Source: Squalus acanthias (lineage: Eukaryota). From it: 64,000 nucleotides of DNA. How positions within the stretch are numbered: position 1 is the stretch's first letter; the number at the start of each line of letters is the position of its first letter. The notes under the pieces are model-generated. The model made no database searches and was not told where the DNA came from. It worked only from the letters and a program-made list of their open reading frames with translations. Position numbers and translations under genes: made by a program. Positions 11,957 to 62,217 of the stretch are shown in pieces. The stretch is from contig CM059432.1 of assembly GCA_030390025.1 (NCBI GenBank), positions 59,088,001-59,152,000 on the forward strand, in the 5' to 3' direction.

Positions 11957-14900
11957 AGGATCATAGAAATGTACGACACAGAAGGAGGCCACTGTGTCTG
12001 CGCCGGTCGAAAAAGAGCTACAGGCTAATCCCACTTTCCAGCTCTTGGTCCGTACCCTTGCAGTTTACGGCACCTCAAGTGCATATCCAAGCACTTATTA
12101 AATGTGATGAGGGTTTCTGCCTCTACCACCCTTTCAGGCAGTGAGATCCCCACCCCCACCACCCTCTGGGTGAAAGAAATTCTCAACTCCCCTCTAATCC
12201 TTCTACCAATTACTTTAAATCTATGCCCCCTGGTTATTGACCTCTTTGCTAAGGGAAATAGGTCATAGAAACATAGAAGATAGGAGCAGGAGTAGGCCAT
12301 TCGGCCCCTCGAGCCTGCTCCGCCATTCGATGAGATCATGGCTGATCATCCAAACTCAGTACCCTGTACCTGCCTTCTCCCCATATCCCTTGATACCTTT
12401 AGCTTTAAGAAATATATCTAACTCATTCTTGAATATATTTAATGACTTGGCCTCAACTACCTTCTGTGGTAGAGAATTCCATAGGTTCACCACTCTCTGG
12501 GTGAAGAAATTCTTCCTCATTTCTGTCCTAAATGGCTTACCCCTGATCCTTAGATTATGACCCCTGGTTCTGGACTCTCCGACCATCGGAAACATTCTTC
12601 CTGCATCTAGTTTGTCCAGACCTGTCAGAATTTTATATGTTTCGATGAGATCCCCTCTCATTCTTCTATACTCCAGCGAGTATAAGCCCAATCGACCCAA
12701 TCTCTCCTCATATGTCATTCCTGCCATCCCAGGTATCAGCCTTGTGAATCTTCGCTGAACTCCTTCCATGGCAAGAACATCCTTCCTCAGATAAGGTGAC
12801 CAAAACTGCACACAGTACTCAAGGTGTGGTCTTACCAAGGCCCTGTACAACTGCAGCAGGACATCCCTGTTCCTATACTCAAACCCTTTCGCTATGAAGG
12901 CCAACATACCATTTGCCTTCTTCACCACCTGCTGCACCTGCATGCTTACCTTCAGCGACTGGTGCACAAGGACACCCAGGTCTCGTTGCACTTCCCCTTC
13001 TCCCAATCTATTGCCATTCAGATAATAATCTGCCTTTCTGTTTTTGACACCAAAGTGGATAACCTCGCATTTATCCACGTTATATTGCATCTGCCATGCT
13101 TCTTCCCACTCACCCAACCTGTCCAAATCATCCTGGAGTTTCTCAGTATCCTCCACGGAGCACACACGCCCACCCAGCTTTGTGTCATCTGCAAACTTGG
13201 AGATATTACATTTAGTTCCCTTATCCAGATCATTAATGTATATTGTGAATAGCTGGGGTCCAAGGACCGAACCTTGCGGTACCCCACTAGTCGCTGCCTG
13301 CCACTCGGAAAAAGACCCATTAATTCCTACTCTCTGCTTTCTGTCCGCCAACCAGTTCTCTATCCAAGTCAATACCTTGCCCCCAATCCCATGTGCCTTA
13401 ACTTTACCCGCTAATCTCTTATGCGGGACCTTATCGAAAGCCTTTTGAAAGTCCAAATACACCACATCTACTGGTTCTCCCTTATCTATTTTCCCAGTTA
13501 CATCCTCAAAAAATTCCAGTAGATTAGTCAAGCACGATTTACCTTTTGTAAAACCATGTTGACTTTGTCCGATCCTGTCACTGTTTTTCAAATGCTCAGC
13601 TATTACACCCTTTATAATGGACTCTAGCATTTTCCCCACTACCGATGTCAGGCTTACCGGTCTGTAATTCCCTGCTTTCTCTCTACCACCCTTTTTGAAT
13701 AGTGGGGTAACATTAGCTACCCTCCAATCCATGGGTACAGTTCCAGATTCCATCGAATGTTGGAAGATGATCAGCAATGCATCTACTATTTCTAGGGCCA
13801 CTTCCTTAAGTACCCTAGGATGTAGATTATCAGGCCCTGGGGATTTATCGGCCTTCAAGCCCGTCAATTTCCCTAACACCATTTCCCTGCAAATACTGAT
13901 TTCTTTCAGTTCCTCCCTTTCATCAGACCCTATGTTCTCCAACATCTCTGGGAGGTTATTTGTGTCCTCCTTTGTGAAGACAGAACCAAAATATGCATTT
14001 AATTGGTCTGCCATTTCTTTGTTTCCCATTATAACTTCCCCCGCTTCTGACTGCAAGGGACCTACACTTGATTTCACTAATCTTTTTCTCTTCACATATC
14101 TATAAAAGCTCTTACAGTCAGTTTTTATGTTCCCTGAAAGCTTACTTTCATATTCTATTTTCCCCTTCTTAATTAATCCCTTTGTCCTCCTTTGTTGAAT
14201 CCTAAACTGCTCCCAATCCTCAGGGTTACTGCTTTTTCTGGCCAATTTATATGCCCTCTCCTTGGATCTTATGCTATCCCAAATTTCCCTTGTTAACCAC
14301 GGTTGAGTCACCCTTTTTGTTTTATTCTTATGCCACACTGGGATGAACAAATTCTGCAGTTCATCCATGCAGTCTTTGAATGTTTGCCATTGCCTATCCA
14401 CCGTCAACCCTTTGAGTGACATTCCCCAATCAATCCTACCCAATTCGCGCCTCATACCATCGTAGTTTCCTTTATTTAAATTCAGGACCCTAGTCTCTGA
14501 TTCAACTACTTCACTCTCCATCCTAATGAAGAATTCTATCATATTATGATCACTCTGATCCAAGGGGCCTCGTACAACAAGATTGCTAATTAATCCTTTC
14601 TCGTTACATAATACCCAGTCTAAGATGGCCTGATCTCTGGTTGGTTCCTCGACATATTGTTCCAGAAAACTATCCCGTAAACATTCTAGGAATTCCTCCT
14701 CCACAGTATTTTTACTAATTTGGTTAGCCCAATCTATATGTAAATTAAAGTCACCCATGATGACTGCTGTGCCCTTACTGCATGCTTCTCTAATTTCCCT
14801 TTTAATGCCGTCCCCAAACTCCGTATTACTGTTTGGAGGTCTATATACAACTCCCACTAACGTTTTCTGCCCCTTGTTATTTCTCAGTTCTACCCATACA

Positions 14901-16399
14901 GATTCTGCATCATCAGAGCTAATATCCTTCCTTTCAGTTGTGTTAATCCCCTCTTTAACCAGCAATGCTACCCCACCTCCCTTTCTTTTTTGCCTATCTT
15001 TCCTAAATATTGAATACCCCTGGATGTTGAGTTCCCAGCCTTGGCCACCCTGGAGCCATGTTTCTGTAATCCCAATCAAATCGTAGTCATTTACCTCTAT
15101 TTGCGCAGCTAATTCATCCACCTTGTTCCGAATGCTCCTTGCATTAAGACTTCCTATCCACTCTATCTAGGCACCTAATAATTTTATACACCTCAATTAA
15201 GTCTCCCCTCAGCCTCCTCTGTTCCATAGAAAACAACCCCAGCCTATCCAATTCTTCCTCATAGCTAAAATTCTCCAGTCATGAAACATCCTCATAAATC
15301 TCCTCTGTACCCTCGCTAGTGCAATCACATCTTTCCTGTAATGTGGTGACCAGAACTGTACACAGTACTCTAGCTGTGGCCTAACTAGTGTTTTATACAG
15401 TTCAAGCGTAATCTCATTGCTCTTATATTCTATGCCTCGACTAATAAAGGAAACTACGCCTTCTTAACTACCTTATCTACCTGTCCTGCTACCTTCAGGG
15501 ATCTGCGGACATGCACTCCAAGGTCCCTCTGTTCCTCTACATTTCTCAGTATCTTACCATTTATTGTGTATTCCCTTGCCTTGTTAGCCCTCCCCAAATG
15601 CATTACCTCACACTTCTCCAGATTGAATTCCATTTGCCACTTTTCTGCCCACCTGACCAGTCCATTGATATCTTCCTGCAGTCTTCAGCTACTTCTTCAC
15701 TATCAACCACATGGTCAATTTTTGTATCATCTGCAAACGTCTTAATCATGCCCCCCACATTGAAGACTAAATCATTGATATATACCACAAAAAGCAAGGG
15801 ACCTGGTACTGAACCCTGCAGAACCCCACTGGAAACAGCTTTCCAGTCACAAAAACACACATCGACCGTTACCCTTTGCTTCCAGCCACTGAGCCAATTT
15901 TGGATCCAACTTGCCACTTTCCCTTGGATCCCATGGGCTTTTACTTTTTTGACCAACCTGCCATGTGGTACTTTGTCAAAGGTCTTGCTAAAGTCCATGT
16001 AGACTACATCAAATGCACTACCCTCATCAACCCTTCTCGTTACCTCTTCAAAAAATTCAATCAAGTTAATCAGACATGACCTTCCCTTAACAAATCCATG
16101 CTGACTGTCCTTGATTAATCCGTGATTTTCTAAATGATGATTTATACTCAGAATTTTTTCCACTAATTTTCCCACCACCGAGGTTAGGCTGACTGGCCTG
16201 TAATTACTCGGTCTATCGCTTTCTCCCTTTTTAAACAATGGCACAATGTTAGCAGAACTCCAGTCCTCTGGCACCACACCTGTAGCCAGAGAGGATTGGA
16301 ACAATATGGTCAGAGCCTCCGCTATTTCCTCCCTTGCCTCTCTTAATAGCCTGCAATACATTTCATCCGGGCCTGGCAATTTATCTACTTTCAAAGATC
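11957..16399 (-). mobile_element. CR1 LINE nested in the older CR1; itself split into 11957-12263 and 15151-16399
   Basis: RT ORF 15603-16463 and C-terminal ORF near 12025-12260; TSD TTGTTAT at 11950-11956 and 16400-16406. Confidence 0.85.
12264..15150 (-). mobile_element. Young CR1 LINE with an uninterrupted ORF2 (AP endonuclease plus RT); ORF1 absent
   Basis: 921-aa ORF 12356-15121, open upstream to LNARSIRNK. Motifs ITETW, GDFN, SDH, QGSVLGP, FADD. (TTCTATGT)n tail. Confidence 0.95.
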
Positions 16400-24789: not shown

Positions 24790-24816
24790 CTGGCAGCTTC
24801 ATCCCCTTGATGTTTT
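24790..24816 (-). CDS. KCNQ3: KCNQ3 27-nt micro-exon (exon 9 equivalent)
   Basis: Pyrimidine tract, then aag|AAAACATCAAGGGGATGAAGCTGCCAG|gtttgt. Phase 2/2 gives (R)KHQGDEAA(S), which aligns with mammalian RKEQLEAAS. Confidence 0.8.
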
Positions 24817-27006: not shown

Positions 27007-27799
27007 AAATTTCTGATTTTGCATTTAAAACGATAAAGATTGAAATATGATGGACATAATCACAAATGCTATTTGAGTTATTGCATTGAGGTTGGCTTTG
27101 GTGTCAGTTGCAGGTTGATATGCAGGATTTCCACTTGTGCCAACACCTTTTGTATTTTATTGTGACTATTACTGGCAGTTTTAATCCCCTTGGATCCATA
27201 GTAAAGTTAGTTGGCACTCACCCATCCCGTACAGATATTTTCCAGTCTGTGAGCAGGGGTCCCACATAAATATCCCCTTCTGGTAGTGTTAAAGGGAGAT
27301 TCTTGTGACGAAAATGGAAGTTTGTCCCTGTGGTGGAGGTTGTCTGCAGGTCAGATTGAGCAGGTGGCACCACTCTTTCGCTGCCTTTTTGAGAAGAACC
27401 TCAGGTAGTTCTCTTCAGACATTCCCTGAAGCTATTTCAGGGTCTTTAAATGGCTGAATGGGTAATGATGGGTTTAGACAGTGCAATTCTGGTACAAACG
27501 AACCTCTCATTTTGCTTCTTTCATCCTCTTCTTTCACCTCCAAATACTCAAGCAGAAAGGAGCACCATTTGCCATCACCAAAGGAGTCAATTCCAAAGAC
27601 ACCGCTTGAAACTCATTAAGCGCACCGACTATTTTGGGCGTTCAAGCAGCTTCAATCAGCTGTTCGCACCTCGTTAAAGGACGGTTAGCGTAGTGATGCG
27701 TCTGTATGTAAATGGTGACCTCAGTTTTTTCTTGCCCTTTCATGATTTCCATGACTTGGATCAGGCAGCCCTGCGGCCTCTGGTCTCCCCACAGGGCCT

Positions 27800-28181
27800 C
27801 TAGAAATCCTGCGACTACTGCGAGCCCTTCTTGCCGGCTGTTTTGCCACCACCGGATTAGAGCCGGATTTCTTTGGCAAGAACATGGCCAGGACGCCGCC
27901 CTGTGTGCTGGTGACACCATCCAGCAGCTTGCTGAGCTCCTCGTCATTGCGGATGGTGAGCTGCAAGTGGCAGGGGATGACGGATGCCCTGGGCCGCGTT
28001 GCCCGCCAGCTCCAGGTTCTCGGCCCTCAGGCACTCGAGGACGGCAGCCAAGTAGACTGGGTTCTCAGCCCCAGCGCGCTCGACATAATTACCTTTGTGG
28101 AGCAGGCGGTGAACACAGCCGGCTGGGAACTGAAGGCTGGACTGAGTTCAACGTGTCTTGGACTTTGCACGGGCTTTACCT
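27800..28181 (-). pseudogene. Histone H2A.X-like pseudogene with C-terminus SQDF
   Basis: GKARAKSKTR*...[17 protein letters not shown]...VYLAAVLE...LELAGNAA...[20 protein letters not shown]...QGGVL...LPKK, then after a frameshift [14 protein letters not shown]. Has stops and indels; no ATG. Confidence 0.85.
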
Positions 28182-34736: not shown

Positions 34737-34831
34737 CTGAAGAAAGGAATCGCTATGACAGTTTCGTAATATCTCCATGTGGCACCAAGATCACTCCGGT
34801 TGAGGTTCGTGGCGTAAAATCTCCATGCAGT
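34737..34831 (-). CDS. KCNQ3: KCNQ3 coding exon, helix A / IQ-like calmodulin-binding region (exon 8 equivalent); GC donor
   Basis: 95 nt, cag|ACT...TTC AG|gcatgt. Translates [31 protein letters not shown](R). Ends in phase 2, matching the next exon. Confidence 0.9.
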
Positions 34832-45660: not shown

Positions 45661-45756
45661 CTGGATCAAGCTTGCTGCGGGATTTCTTCTTTTTTCAAAA
45701 TGCTTTTGACGATGTTGCTCCTGAACTTTAAGAGCCAGCCCTGAGCCCAGAATGCC
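45661..45756 (-). CDS. KCNQ3: KCNQ3 coding exon, end of S6 to helix A (exon 7 equivalent)
   Basis: 96 nt, aag|...|gtccgg. Translates [38 protein letters not shown] rather than GSGFAL is KCNQ3-like. Confidence 0.93.
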
Positions 45757-47614: not shown

Positions 47615-47725
47615 AGCTGGTAAAGCAAAAAATGACACTCCCACAAGAGCAAACATTGCAGCTAAAAGACGGCCTGCCCAAGTCTTTGGTGTCTTGTCGC
47701 CGTAGCCAATCGTAGTCAGTGTAAT
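47615..47725 (-). CDS. KCNQ3: KCNQ3 coding exon, selectivity filter and S6 (exon 6 equivalent)
   Basis: 111 nt, tag|...|gtaagt. Translates [37 protein letters not shown], containing the GYG filter. Not captured by the ORF track. Confidence 0.95.
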
Positions 47726-47919
47726 CTACACAAAGAAAATCAAAGTTACACAACCAGATATGGATTGTTCCTGCTGCTTGGTGTAGAAAAGCAATTGTGT
47801 TACCTATAGCAATCTCAGGATGAAAAGGAAAGCTGCATATACCGGAAATCTGAAATAATAACAGAAAATGCTGGCAATACGCAAGGTTCATCGCATTTAC
47901 AAAGAAAACAGATGACTTA

Positions 47920-48546
47920 GGGCTGGATTTTGATACTGGGGGGGGTTGGGGTCGTGTTATCCACTTTTCGTGTTATCCACCCGACTGCAATTGGATGTGG
48001 GAGATTGATGCGATTTTCACCTAATTGGGCAATTGAGTTCCAGCATGTGGGAACCCATGACCCAATTAGTGTTTTCAGTCTGAAAGTCGCCTCTGATGAT
48101 GTCATCATTGCTGCTGCATTGAAGGTCTGCAAAGACTGCCTGGCCTTTGCTGTGAGAGGACTTGGATGCAAAATGAGCAGCAGCAGCCCTAAGTCTGCCC
48201 CCAGATATTTTACAGAGAGAGAGCGAGAGAGAGCAGCCATCCAAATGTGCTCCCGCCAGGTTTCACAATCGTGGTTAAGAACAGGCGTGCTTCATGTAGA
48301 ACAAGGGTTAAAATCACAAAGGCCTTTCAAAATGGCATTATAGAGCCAATTTAGTGCTTGTTAAGGGCCTTAACAGCCTATCCCGTCTCTTAGAGGCGGG
48401 ACGGAGTCGGGACCAGCAGACACGATTTCATGAAAATTGCGTGGAGGCGGGATGGAGGCGGACTTGTGCCCGCCCGCCAGTTTTCGCAATTTTAACCCCC
48501 CACACGCCTCCAAACCCGCCTCCACGGGTCAATGAAAATCCAGCCC
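47920..48546. mobile_element. Harbinger-type MITE (distinct family)
   Basis: Perfect 12-bp TIR GGGCTGGATTTT / AAAATCCAGCCC with the canonical PIF/Harbinger TSD TTA. Confidence 0.9.
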
Positions 48547-51698: not shown

Positions 51699-51842
51699 CA
51701 AACCCCACCACAGTGCATCTGCATAGGTATTAAAGTCCTGTGTACTGTTTCTGGCATCATTATCATCTTTTTCAACCAGGTAAACAAGAAAGGAGGCCAG
51801 AATGAGTGACAGAAATCCGATGTACCAGGCAGTGATGAGTTC
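51699..51842 (-). CDS. KCNQ3: KCNQ3 coding exon, S5-turret-pore helix (exon 5 equivalent)
   Basis: 144 nt, cag|...|gtaagt, phase 0/0. Translates [48 protein letters not shown]. Confidence 0.95.
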
Positions 51843-54385
51843 CTGATAAACATGAAAAAGATCTATTAGTTTCTTCAAAGTTGATAAATACACAATGTCC
51901 CACTCTACTGTAGGTGCCATCTTGAATTAATATGATGTCAATCCACTCAATTAGTAATTTTACTGTTTTGATATTTATATAGGCAAATTTCATGATCCAG
52001 TAGCACAGAACAAGTCTGATTACAGACTTGTATCTTAACTTCTTAACTAATATCTTAACTTCACTTCAATAAATGAGGGGAATAGGAATAGTCAGAATAT
52101 TCTCTATTTAGATGTAACAGGTTTCATGATAAATGACTACAGAAGTTATTTGAAGCTTTAAGTGATGATCTCATCAGGGCAGATTTCTCTCCACAGAATT
52201 CACGGTGATTGAATCAGTGTTTCATGTACAAACACTTCATATTGAAAATTCAAAATCAAACTTTAACTCAAGATGTGCAAAACTAATGAACAGAAAAGTG
52301 CAAATTACACTTGTTCGCTGAAGCTATTCTTGTCAATAAATTGAAGGTTACACTCTCCTCCACGATCCCACCCAATTTTAGGCAGGATTGAAGTGGATAG
52401 TGAGCGAAAATTCAAGGCAGTAAGGCCTACCACTGCCTGACCTGTACTTCCTGTCCCCCGCCCCTGCCACCGGCCTCTGCTTCCCTGCCCGCTACGAGTA
52501 AATAGTGCTGGCGGGGACAGGGTCTATGTTACCACTGCTTCCTGTGGATGGTTGGGCCGAATGGCCTGTTTCCATGCTGTATATCCTATGTAATCCTATG
52601 TTACGGGGAAGGTGGTGGTAGGCCCTGGGGACTGGTGGTAATGACCCTGAGGTGCCCCCACGTTGGGGGCGGAGGGGGGGGGGGGGAAGAGGGCAGAGAG
52701 ATTCGTGCTGACCTCTTCTCCCTCCGTTCCACCCCTGCTGAAGGCCTGGGTCTTGGCCGAGGCCGTTAAGTGATCATTGGGGGCGTTTCTGCCTCTTTAA
52801 TTGCACTCACAGCTGTTCTGGTGCTGCAAGGAGTAGTCTCGTGCATAGCACCATCAGGATTTTATGCTCTTGCAGGATTGGGCTCCTTCTTGATGGCGGG
52901 AACCCAGCCAGAAGCCCGCCCTGCATATGAGATGACCCCAGATCTAGGAAACTGGGTCGGGGTTCTGGCAATGTTCTGGCGAGGCAGGCAGAAGTCGTGT
53001 CACTTTTTTCCTTTTCTCTCCTGCTCCTGGGTCAAAGTTCATGATCGACATATGATGGGCTCCCGGTGGGATTCCTGACACCAAGAGGACGCCCCCCATT
53101 GGTTTTGATGCATCCTAATCTTACAAGATACTAACTGTGCGATGTTCATGTGATTGTGTGTTTCACTGTGTGGTAATGAATGAGAAGGAGAATCAGATGT
53201 AGGAAGGTATTAGTGCTGAGCTTTGGGAGTCCTATGGAATCACCTTCATACTCTTATATTCAAGGATGTCTCGGTTGGACTCCTCTAAGAAAATCTGGCC
53301 TAGAAATTGGATATGGCCTGAAAACGGGCGGTGTCATGGGCCAGCGCTATTTGGCTGCACCCGTTCTAAGTGGTGCAGGCAGCATGCGAAATTCGTGCTG
53401 CCTGCTCATTTACATCATTGGAATGCTGATCCCAGCACTAAACACGCTGCTGATTGGCTTAGTGCTCAACAGGTGGGCCAATATCGGGTGCAGTCTAATG
53501 ACCAGTAATGTTTGGCCTAGTCTCTCTCCACTGCTTAAATGGGAGGTGCTTTGATGCAGCAGCACCTCATTGTCATTGCAGTCTGAAGCCATGGCACTTC
53601 AACAATAACAGCAACACAGAAAAAGAGCCAGTAGGTTCTCGGATGCGGCTCTCGAGGCCTTGGTTGTGGCAGTGGAGAGAAGGCGGGGTGTCCTGTTCCC
53701 GTAGTCTGGCAGGAAGCCATCAACGCCCACTTGTAGAAGGCTCTGGCAAGAGATAGCTGCCTACGTCACGGCCAACAGCGTCGTGCCGAGGACCTGGATC
53801 CAATGCCGAAAGAAGTTTAATGGCCTCACACGGCAGGTCAAGGTGAGTGAAAGCTTCAGCAAATGCCATATCCTACTATCTGCACCACAAGCCTCACACA
53901 CTGCTCAATGCACCACCACCACCCCCCATCCCATCATTCACCTACCAACAATCTCTACCTATCACCACTCATACCTCACAATCATAGCTTCACTTCACCC
54001 TCACACATTTACCACTGCTGCAACACTCACACCCACATCTCACACCTTGCACACACTGACAGCTATTGAACTATGGCAGGCACATCGCCCAAACACATTG
54101 CACCGCACTCACTCACACACATCCCTTTCTCTTACAGGCCAAGGTGGTTCACAACCACCAGAAGCAGCGGCAAACGGGAGGCGGCCAAGCCGCTTTAGAG
54201 AAATTAAGACAACTGGACGAGACGGTGCTCGACATAATTTGAGGGGAAGTCACCGAGGCTGTGGCAAAGGGCGATGTTGAAGCCCTTGGGGACAATAACG
54301 TTTTGGTCATTCCTAATCCTTCTTCTCACTTCCCACTTCTCCCTCATCCCACAATCTCCTCTCACTTACAAGCTGTTGATGGTAT

Positions 54386-58438: not shown

Positions 58439-58591
58439 AAGAACATAAGAATTAGGAGCAGGAGTAGGCCATACGGCCCTTCGAGCCTGCTCCGCTATTC
58501 AAGAAGATCATGGCTGATCTTCGACCTCAACTCCACTTTCCTGCCCAATCCCCATATCCCTTGATTACCCTAGAGTCCAAAAATCTATCTA
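58439..58591 (-). mobile_element. 153-bp CR1 3' end inserted in the transposase
   Basis: TSD TCTCAT (58433-58438 and 58592-58597); TTCTTATG tail. Confidence 0.88.
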
Positions 58592-59322
58592 TCTCATTGT
58601 ATAAGTGCTGGGCAGGAGTGGTGGGATAGCGGAGGTGAGTCATCAGCCAGGTGCACAGCAGATCACCCGCGTCTCCGAGCAGCCACCCTCGGGTATGACA
58701 TGGTGCCTGGAAGATTGCTGGCACACCAGGCTGATGCAGGATGAAGGCATTATGACTACTGCCAGGATAGCGGGCATTCACCATCAGAATGAGCTGGACG
58801 TGGTCGCACAACAACTGCACATTAAGTGAGTGGTAGCCTTTGCGGTTAGGGAAGATCTCAGGATTGGTATACGGTGCCCGCAAAGCTGCGTGGATGCAGT
58901 AAATGGCATCCTGCACAATGGGGAAGCCCGCTATCTTGGCAAAGCCACATGCGTGCTTCTCCTGCTTCTCTTTGTTGAGAGAGAAGACAACGTAGTCCCT
59001 TCTCCTGGTGTAGAGAGCCTCAGTGACCTCCCGGATGCAGCGATGGACTGGGAGATTTAGCTATGTCTCCTGCTGCAGACTGCAACGATCTGCTGGCGAA
59101 GAAATTGAGGACCACGGTGACCTTGAGGGCCACTGGGTGAGCCGTGATCGCCCTGCTCTGAGGCTGCAGGTCTGGCTGCAGGAGGTGGCAGAGTTCTGTG
59201 ACCACCTCCTTGGTGAAGCAGAGCCTCCGAATACACTGCTCCTCGCTTAAGTGGAGATAAGAGAAGTGCTCTCGGAAGAAGCTAGGTGAGGGCCTCCTGT
59301 TGAGAGCCCTCCTGGCCCTCCT

Positions 59323-60835
59323 GGAGGTGGCCTTGGAAATAGTGGATGCATTGACGTTCATTTTCCAACATTCCTTAGACTCAGGATCAGTTCCAATGGA
59401 GTGGAGGGTGGCCAATGTAACCCCTCTTTTTAAAAAAGGAGGGAGGGAGAAAGCAGGGAATTATAGACCGGTCAGCCTGACATCGGTCGTGGGTAAAATG
59501 ATGGAAGCAATTATTAATGATGTCATAACAGACCATTTGGAAAGTGGCGACATGATAGGTCCAAGTCAGCATGGATTTGTGAAAGGGAAATCATGCTTGA
59601 CAAATCTTCTGGAATTTTTTGAGGATGTTTCCAATAGGGTGGACAGGGGGGAACCAGTAGATGTGGTGTATTTGGACTTTCAGAAGGCCTTCGACAAGGT
59701 CCCACACAAGAGATTGGTGAGCAAAGTTAAAGCACATGGGATTGGGGGTAATGTGTTGACGTGGATTGAGAACTGGTAAATGGGTACTTTTCAGAATGGC
59801 AGGCAGTGACCAGCGGGGTACCGCAGGGTTCGGTGCTGGGACTCCAGCTGTTTACATTATATATGATTTGGACGAAGGGATTAAATGTAATATCTCCAAA
59901 TTTGCGGATGACACTAAATTGGGAGGCAGTGTGAACAATGAGGAGGATGCTAGGAGGCTACAGAGTGACTTGGACAGGTTGGGTGAATGGGCAAATGTAT
60001 GGCAGATGAAGTACAATGTGGATAAATGTGAGGTTATCCACTTTGGTGGTAAAAATAGAGAGGCGGACTATTACCTGAATGGTGGCAGATTAGGGAAAGG
60101 GGAGGTGCAACGAGACCTGGGCGTCATGGTACATCAGTCACTGAAGGTGGGAATGCAAGTGCAGCAGGCAGTCAAGAAAGCAAACGGAATGATGGCCTTC
60201 ATAGTAAGGGGATTTGAGTACAGGAGTAGGGAGGTGATGCTGCAGTTGTACAGGGCCTTGGTGAGGCCACACCTGGAGTATTGTGCGCAGTTTTGGTCTC
60301 CTAACTTAAGGAAGGACATTCTTGCTATTGAGGGAGTGCAGCGAAGGTTCACTAGATTGATTCCTGGGATGGCCGGACTGACATATCAAGAAAGATTGGG
60401 TCAACTGAACTTGTATCCTCTGGAGTTCAGAAGAATGAGGGGGGATCTTATAGAGACATTTAAAATCCTGACTGGTTTAGACAAATTAGATGCGGGCAGA
60501 ATGTTCCCAATGTTAGGGAAAACTAGAACCAGGGGTCACAGTCTAAGGATTAAGGGGAAGCCATTTAAGACTGAGCTGAGGAGGAACTTCTTCACCCAGA
60601 GAGTGGTGAATCTATGGAATTCTCTTCCACAGAAGGTTGTTGAGGCCAGTTCGCTAAATATATTCAAAAGGGAGTTAGATATAACACTCACAACTAGGGG
60701 GATCAAGGGGTATGGCGAGAAAGCAGGAATGGGGTACTGAGGTAGCATGTTCAGCCATGAACGCATTGAATGGCGGTGCAGGCTCGAAGGACCGAATGGT
60801 CTACTCCTGTACCTATTTTCTATGTTTCTATGTTT
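59323..60835 (+). mobile_element. 5'-truncated CR1 inserted in the 5' part of the transposase
   Basis: RT ORFs; TSD CCTCCT (59317-59322 and 60836-60841); TTCTATGT tail. Confidence 0.92.
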
Positions 60836-62044: not shown

Positions 62045-62217
62045 CTTGCTGTGTGAACAAATTGCTGAACCTAAAAGTTTCCATGTGCCTCCTCTCCGGT
62101 CCATTCGCAACATGCGCAGTATTTGTAGAAAACGTAAGCTTCGCAGAGATGTCGCCACTATGTTCTGCAGTGTCCCCACTGCAACAATCACCACAGAACC
62201 AATCAGGACGATGATAT
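62045..62217 (-). CDS. KCNQ3: KCNQ3 coding exon, S3-S4-S4/S5 linker (equivalent to human exon 4)
   Basis: 173 nt with tag| acceptor and |gtatgg donor. Translates (D)[63 protein letters not shown] (not ATSALRS) and GSAICxHSK are KCNQ3-type signatures. Confidence 0.95.

What the first reader, a model, noticed from the sequence alone, without database searches (positions are those of the whole stretch)
47615..47725. KCNQ3 carries a natural Thr at the mammalian A315 pore position
Seen: the pore reads [14 protein letters not shown]. Established: mammalian KCNQ3 has ITLATIGYGD (A315) where other KCNQs have Thr, and the engineered A315T substitution greatly increases homomeric KCNQ3 current. The rest of this gene has KCNQ3 signatures. 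Inference: this lineage's Kv7.3 may form efficient homomers, and the Ala that makes KCNQ3 depend on KCNQ2 may be a later, derived state.
Basis: partly seen in the sequence, partly recalled or inferred. Interest (0 to 1): 0.7.

Follow-up and report, generated by a model that had tools for sequence, protein, structure and literature searches.

The report
Fish-type KCNQ3 with ancestral pore threonine
This shark gene is an ordinary KCNQ3 nerve potassium channel, but like every fish version examined, zebrafish included, it has a threonine where all land vertebrates examined have the alanine that keeps KCNQ3 nearly silent without its partner KCNQ2, so that dependence may have arisen when vertebrates moved onto land.

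Summary
Observation confirmed. Minus-strand exon 47725-47615 encodes the pore of a shark KCNQ3. The A315-equivalent codon is ACT (Thr), unchanged in contigs of 4 of 4 runs laid. Orthology holds: KCNQ3 clade 100/100, grouping with KCNQ2 rejected at p=0.0015. The Thr is not special to this lineage. Of 284 labelled KCNQ3 proteins, 165 of 168 from fishes (sharks, rays, chimaera, ray-fins including zebrafish, coelacanth, lungfish) have Thr and 3 lack the pore; 113 of 113 tetrapods have Ala. Ala315 therefore arose once, on the tetrapod stem. Six of 8 tetrapod-fixed changes lie in S5-S6 (post-hoc P about 0.001). That fish KCNQ3 works as a homomer is inferred from mammalian A315T data (about 60%), not shown. 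Other dampers (helix-D Phe622, long C-D linker) are present in sharks. Ten searches of the open library showed no statement of this pattern, but the classic A315 papers were not available. Verdict: an ordinary gene with a real, cheaply testable evolutionary point.

The parts
62045..62217 (-). KCNQ3 exon, 173 nt: S3, S4 voltage sensor, S4-S5 linker
   Evidence: tblastn with shark KCNQ3; AG/GT ends; Pfam Ion_trans at E 8.4e-5, below the curated cut-off
51699..51842 (-). KCNQ3 exon, 144 nt: S5 with the W265-equivalent Trp, long 13-residue turret, start of pore helix ending WWGL
   Evidence: 100% identical to four shark proteins named KCNQ3; splice sites; turret length
47615..47725 (-). KCNQ3 exon, 111 nt: pore helix, selectivity filter, S6 (the finding)
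   Evidence: Pfam Ion_trans_2 E 2.8e-12
47714..47716 (-). ACT codon, Thr at the position of human KCNQ3 Ala315
   Evidence: unchanged in contigs of 4 of 4 runs
45661..45756 (-). KCNQ3 exon, 96 nt: end of S6 and start of helix A
34737..34831 (-). KCNQ3 exon, 95 nt: helix A; followed by a GC (not GT) donor
24790..24816 (-). probable 27-nt KCNQ3 micro-exon; keeps the frame and matches the same stretch of the shark homologues at 7 of 9 residues
   Evidence: AG/GT ends, no stop in the spliced frame; homologue sequences

Best explanation
This is the shark orthologue of KCNQ3 (Kv7.3), a subunit of the neuronal M-type potassium channel, and it keeps the ancestral Thr three residues before GYG that KCNQ2, 4 and 5 also have. 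SHOWN: orthology; Thr in all sampled non-tetrapod jawed vertebrates; Ala in all sampled tetrapods; one change on the tree, on the tetrapod stem after the lungfish split, needing only an ACN-to-GCN transition. SHOWN but post hoc: five more tetrapod-fixed changes in S5-S6 (T271, E298, E301, E328, I332). INFERRED (about 0.6): a hydroxyl at 315 raises mammalian KCNQ3 homomer current roughly 10- to 30-fold, and the neighbouring residues I312, T313, L314, F343 and F344 are the same in shark and human, so shark and other fish KCNQ3 should conduct well as homotetramers while still co-assembling with KCNQ2. The near-silent, KCNQ2-dependent KCNQ3 would then be a tetrapod innovation. The confidence value is for the evolutionary statement; the functional step is less sure.
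For: Tree of 47 rows over the 205 residues of five window exons: window inside a chondrichthyan KCNQ3 clade (99/99) within KCNQ3 (100/100); window+KCNQ2 rejected by AU test, p=0.0015; one T/A change needed among the chordate rows counted. Identity 99.5% to sawshark KCNQ3 against 75-78% to four KCNQ2 rows and 72-75% to six jawed-vertebrate KCNQ4/5 rows. Residue census: fish 165 T, 3 without pore, of 168; tetrapods 113 A of 113, with Danio rerio P0478, Protopterus P0012 and Latimeria P0164 all T. All KCNQ2/4/5 and cyclostome rows with a pore in the tree have T. PMC4687061 (passages, Introduction, part 1 of Discussion): residue 315 is 'uniquely an alanine in KCNQ3', Thr or Ser raises current about 30-fold by their citation, and their own data are 14.9 versus 140 pA/pF. 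Window residues at 312 and 343/344; column conservation 305-349.
Against: No functional data on any fish KCNQ3 were found (PMC5659376 expressed zebrafish Kv7.4, not Kv7.3, in the passages seen). Shark KCNQ3 homologues keep Phe622 in helix D and, in 9 of 10, a long helix C-D linker (46-48 residues, against 18-32 in five of six measured KCNQ2/4/5 rows), both tied to weaker homomer assembly or ER retention in mammals; these parts lie outside the window. The A315T effect was measured in a tetrapod background that differs from fish at five other pore-domain sites. Lungfish and coelacanth are one sequence each, and the coelacanth pore is oddly divergent. Samples are the top 120 hits of three searches over 90%-identity clusters plus listed cluster members, so rare exceptions could be missed. 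Synteny could not be tested.
Confidence: 0.85

Rival explanations
1. The residue history is as described but has little functional weight in fish: fish KCNQ3 is still a poor homomer and depends on KCNQ2 through C-terminal features (Phe622, long C-D linker with an ER-retention-like motif). Ala315 only tightened an older dependence.
For: Phe622 in 10 of 10 full-length chondrichthyan KCNQ3 and in all groups. The QSP-containing linker motif is in sharks, sturgeons, gars, bichirs and coelacanth. PMC4687061 shows this linker halves homomer current in mammals, and says several domains act together.
Against: In mammals A315T gives large currents although Phe622 and the linker are still there (140 versus 14.9 pA/pF); removing the linker gives only about 2-fold. 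Sharks have Glu at 633 and Gly or Val at 631 rather than the amniote Gly633/Asp631; Glu633 is half of the double change proposed to favour tetramers.
Confidence: 0.35
2. The gene is not KCNQ3 but KCNQ2, 4 or 5 (or a KCNQ2-converted exon), so Thr is expected.
For: KCNQ2/4/5 all have Thr here. Helix A in the window has Asn at 373, not the tetrapod Lys.
Against: Tree and AU test; 100% exon identity to four proteins named KCNQ3; the finding's own exon scores best against KCNQ3 chains; 13-residue turret against 7 in 8 of 9 KCNQ2/4/5 rows checked, one not measurable; Thr is shared by all sampled fish KCNQ3.
Confidence: 0.01
3. The ACT codon is an assembly error or a private allele for GCT.
For: A single A/G difference separates the two codons.
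Against: No other letter at 47714-47716 in 4 of 4 runs from four studies; 11 of 11 chondrichthyan proteins have Thr.
Confidence: 0.005
4. Ala is ancestral for KCNQ3 and fishes reverted to Thr.
For: A tardigrade KCNQ (P0257) has Ala at this site, and other unnamed, mostly invertebrate-type representatives have Cys, Ser, Leu or Met, so the site is not frozen.
Against: It needs separate reversals in chondrichthyans, ray-fins, coelacanth and lungfish, while the sister paralogue KCNQ2 and all cyclostome rows have Thr; one change explains the chordate data.
Confidence: 0.01

Closest known systems
Chondrichthyan KCNQ3 models in NCBI/UniRef (Pristiophorus P0004, Heptranchias P0001, Mustelus P0003, Heterodontus P0006, Hemiscyllium P0002)
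   Same: 97.6-99.5% identical over 205 residues; same Thr and same turret.
   Different: Only scattered substitutions; nothing in the pore sets the window apart from them.
Human KCNQ3 / Kv7.3 (PDB 22az, 24vi, 9x5j)
   Same: Orthologue; same filter, W265, I312-L314, F343/F344 and long turret; shark homologues also share F622 and the ankyrin-G anchor.
   Different: Thr for Ala315, and the fish state at the other tetrapod-fixed sites in the window: S271, Q298, N301, A328, L332, N373.
Engineered KCNQ3-A315T ('KCNQ3T', 'KCNQ3*')
   Same: Same residue at 315. The standard laboratory background for homomer studies (PMC4687061, PMC7733659, PMC5945843; passages) is in effect a reversion to the fish state.
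   Different: The mutant sits in a tetrapod pore. The natural fish channel differs at five more S5-S6 sites and has not been recorded in any paper I could find.
KCNQ2 / KCNQ4 / KCNQ5
   Same: Thr at this position, S5 Trp, GYG filter.
   Different: Separate clades; 7-residue turret; shorter helix C-D linker in most rows measured.

Membership tests
Neuronal KCNQ2-5 channels | S4 arginine repeat, S5 TAW tryptophan (W265), TIGYG filter, S6 leading into helix A | tested here: met
   Read directly from window exons; TAW as a KCNQ2-5 mark from PMC2597720 passages
KCNQ3 orthologue group (jawed vertebrates) | Falls inside the KCNQ3 clade, apart from KCNQ2/4/5 | tested here: met
   100/100 support; window+KCNQ2 rejected, p-AU 0.0015
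KCNQ3 orthologue group (jawed vertebrates) | Extended S5-pore turret | tested here: met
   13 residues in the window, 10-24 in four KCNQ3 rows, 7 in 8 of 9 KCNQ2/4/5 rows, one not measurable
KCNQ3 orthologue group (jawed vertebrates) | C-terminal ankyrin-G anchor, helix-D Phe622, long helix C-D linker | not testable with these tools
   These exons lie outside the window and no genome is held. Present in the nearest homologues: anchor in 9 of 10 and Phe622 in 10 of 10 full-length chondrichthyan proteins
KCNQ3 orthologue group (jawed vertebrates) | Conserved gene neighbourhood (synteny) | not testable with these tools
   Only internal exons of the gene lie in the window; no genome held
Tetrapod-type (Ala315) KCNQ3 | Ala at 315 and the co-fixed T271, E298, E301, E328, I332, K373 | tested here: not met
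   Window has the fish state at all seven sites; not filed in this group
Tetrapod-type (Ala315) KCNQ3 | Very small homomeric current, rescued by KCNQ2 | not testable with these tools
   Needs heterologous expression

The most novel reading that the evidence does not exclude
The near-obligate KCNQ2/KCNQ3 heteromer of mammalian neurons is a tetrapod invention. On the stem between lungfish and amphibians the KCNQ3 pore domain was reworked (six fixed changes in S5-S6, with Thr315Ala as the switch), turning a self-sufficient channel into a partner-dependent one. Fishes, zebrafish included, would run functional KCNQ3 homomers that can partly stand in for KCNQ2.
Probability: 0.4. Interest if true: 0.65.

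Novelty: new variant of a known kind. Interest (0 to 1): 0.45.

Why it matters
Channel papers call Ala315 'unique to KCNQ3' and use A315T as a laboratory trick. The data here say the trick restores the state kept by every fish sampled and that Ala was fixed once, on the tetrapod stem. That gives a dated, two-state natural experiment on how a heteromer partner becomes dependent, testable with one cDNA and one point mutant. It also warns that zebrafish kcnq2/kcnq3 models of neonatal epilepsy may not share the human subunit dependence. Limits: the window is a typical member of a large group, the sequences are public, and function is untested.

Tried and rejected
Own-genome search: no genome held, so no synteny and no downstream exons. 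Sensitive tblastn for the 5' and 3' parts of KCNQ3 found nothing convincing in the window beyond the 27-nt micro-exon found by motif. The first tree (48 rows) was distorted by a misaligned coelacanth KCNQ2 row without the pore (branch length 10); that row was dropped and the tree rebuilt with LG+G4; one search failed on a grouping error. The pattern missed the coelacanth (filter starts with Ser); the looser pattern caught it. Dropped before the census: 47 of the 120 hits that were unlabelled fragments without the pore, and from the fish/tetrapod totals two unnamed proteins (one T, one A) and the lamprey-labelled P0462 (T). The 'sarcopterygian' and 'tetrapod+lungfish' rows are not independent tests, because the 97% threshold lets tetrapod-only sites through; I do not use them. 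No RNA holder on record was listed for the stretch. Paper searches that showed no statement of the fish/tetrapod split, judged from listings and from passages of seven papers. The Gomez-Posada 2010 J Neurosci paper (DOI recalled) is not held. No structure or complex was predicted: a KCNQ pore tetramer would pass by likeness to solved structures whatever residue 315 is. Earlier scan notes: none on this gene.

Full report
What is in the window. The window is animal DNA, 44.8% G+C, rich in LINE and Harbinger-type transposon remains. A KCNQ gene runs on the minus strand. Six exons were mapped with splice sites: 62217-62045, 51842-51699, 47725-47615, 45756-45661, 34831-34737 and a probable micro-exon 24816-24790. 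They splice into 214 residues with no stop. The start and the C-terminal half of the gene lie outside the window, and no genome is held.

The observation. The finding's exon reads [10 protein letters not shown]... and follows an exon ending in WWGL. It aligns without gaps to human KCNQ3 312-348, which reads ITLATIGYGD, so the fourth residue is the A315 equivalent. Its codon is ACT at 47716-47714. Contigs of 4 of 4 runs laid show no other letter there; X5 differs only at 47711, a silent change in the next codon. X1 may be the assembly's own sample, but X5 and X10 are other studies and X6 carries another organism label.

Which paralogue. The S5/turret exon is 100% identical to four shark proteins named KCNQ3. 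Over 205 residues the window is 99.5% identical to sawshark KCNQ3, 78-85% to bony-vertebrate KCNQ3, 75-78% to four KCNQ2 rows and 72-75% to six jawed-vertebrate KCNQ4/5 rows. In a 47-row maximum-likelihood tree rooted on two KCNQ1-like rows, it lies in a chondrichthyan clade (99/99) inside KCNQ3 (100/100). Forcing it with KCNQ2 is rejected (p-AU 0.0015). One row, a coelacanth KCNQ2 model without the pore, was left out after it distorted the first tree. The turret is long, 13 residues against 7 in KCNQ2/4/5. It is a shark KCNQ3; I did not determine the species.

Who has Thr, who has Ala. I labelled 284 KCNQ3 proteins by the source's species name; the ray-finned hits were labelled in bulk. Thr: 11 chondrichthyan, 4 bichir/reedfish, 6 sturgeon/paddlefish, 2 holostean, 140 teleost (Danio rerio P0478 among them), 1 coelacanth, 1 lungfish. 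That is 165 of 168 fish proteins; the other 3 lack the pore. Ala: 4 caecilian, 6 salamander, 12 frog, 30 mammal, 1 tuatara, 16 squamate, 14 turtle, 1 crocodile, 29 bird, which is 113 of 113. Several rows are isoforms or close relatives, so these are not independent events; the point is that there is no exception. KCNQ2, 4, 5 and six cyclostome rows all have Thr, and one change explains the chordate rows counted. Ala315 thus arose once, after the lungfish split and before amphibians and amniotes parted. The human codon is GCC in a primer printed in PMC7733659 (passage), so one transition suffices.

Company on the same branch. In 237 of the 284 proteins (those of 740 residues or more, the three unassigned left out), 8 of 689 well-filled columns are fixed (97% or more) in tetrapods and absent from all fish: T271, E298, E301, A315, E328, I332, K373, W484 (numbering checked against human). 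Six of the 8 lie in S5-S6, which holds 85 of the 441 columns that are conserved in tetrapods (hypergeometric P 9e-4). I drew the boundaries after seeing the list, so this is suggestive only. Other stems do not show it: chondrichthyan 1 of 26, ray-finned 1 of 3, teleost 0 of 2, amniote 0 of 1. Against a burst of change, the tetrapod stem is not unusually long in the tree (0.14 against 0.18 for chondrichthyans). The window has the fish state at all seven sites it covers.

How it most likely works. Established (PMC4687061: passages, Introduction, part 1 of 2 of the Discussion): mammalian KCNQ3 homomers give small currents; Thr or Ser at 315 raises them about 30-fold by the literature it cites and from 14.9 to 140 pA/pF in its own data; the authors favour an unstable pore that is rescued by a hydrophilic residue or by KCNQ2. 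A trafficking explanation also exists (Gomez-Posada 2010; recalled, not held). The shark pore has the Thr and the same I312, T313, L314, F343 and F344. I infer, at about 0.6, that it conducts well as a homomer and still mixes with KCNQ2, which sharks have (Scyliorhinus P0254 sits with KCNQ2 rows). Against: shark homologues keep Phe622 (10 of 10) and mostly the long C-D linker with its ER-retention-like motif. In mammals that linker costs only about 2-fold and does not cancel A315T. Sharks have Glu633, not the amniote Gly633; frogs have Glu too, so that site does not track Ala315. Among 148 distant representatives the site is Thr in 82, Cys 36, Ser 10, Ala 4, Leu 4, Met 3, with no pore in 9, so its effect may depend on context.

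Is it known. The sequences are public and annotated as KCNQ3. Ten full-text searches showed no paper stating that fish KCNQ3 has Thr or reporting currents from a fish KCNQ3. I judged this from listings and from passages of PMC2597720, PMC4687061, PMC7733659, PMC5945843, PMC5659376, PMC4016485 and bioRxiv 2025.05.07.652122. No supplements were read. The library lacks most subscription papers, the original A315 studies among them, and these may mention it. The scan's own notes hold nothing on it.

Verdict. The window is not special: it is a typical fish KCNQ3. The value lies in the clean fish/tetrapod split at a much-used residue, the cheap experiment it invites and the caution for zebrafish models. 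Interest 0.45; new variant of a known kind.

Noticed in passing
P0164 (Latimeria KCNQ3, XP_064410507.1), pore and S6: The coelacanth KCNQ3 model departs from all other sampled KCNQ3 at nine pore/S6 sites that are otherwise nearly invariant (A306G, T316S in the filter, T323I, K325E, T326K, R330Q, S342T, A348S, G349D in the PAG hinge). This could be relaxed selection, a non-conducting subunit, or a model error.
   Followed up: no
P0462 (labelled Lampetra 'KCNQ3-like', XP_078480629.1, 38-kb contig): Nests among teleost KCNQ3 with a zero end branch; probably fish DNA in a lamprey assembly, so no evidence for a cyclostome KCNQ3.
   Followed up: partly
P0257 (Hypsibius KCNQ): A tardigrade KCNQ has Ala at the same pore position, apparently an independent origin.
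   Followed up: no
window 34736-34729 (minus): The intron after the 95-nt exon starts with GC, not GT (GC-AG type); not checked against reads.
   Followed up: no
window 12359-15166 (minus): 936-residue stop-free frame with endonuclease and reverse transcriptase domains: an apparently intact LINE ORF2 (CR1-like by recall) in a KCNQ3 intron; many broken copies lie elsewhere in the window.
   Followed up: partly
window 27724-28100 (minus): Frameshifted histone H2A-like stretch (Pfam Histone_H2A_C, E 9e-5), probably a pseudogene in the intron.
   Followed up: partly
window 58530-59460 (minus) and 53705-54277 (plus): DDE_Tnp_4 transposase remnant and a Myb/SANT-like remnant facing each other: likely one decayed PIF/Harbinger element with later insertions.
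   Followed up: partly
helix D of KCNQ3 homologues (outside the window): Position 633 is Glu in fishes and frogs, Asp in salamanders, Gly in caecilians and amniotes; 631 is Gly/Val/His in non-teleost fishes and Asp in teleosts and tetrapods; Phe622 is universal where matched. The reported KCNQ3 assembly determinants thus arose at different times.
   Followed up: partly
window about 47820-47890 and 47913-47950: Very high-copy repeat pieces 100-200 bases from the pore exon (summed contig depth 10^5-10^6).
   Followed up: no
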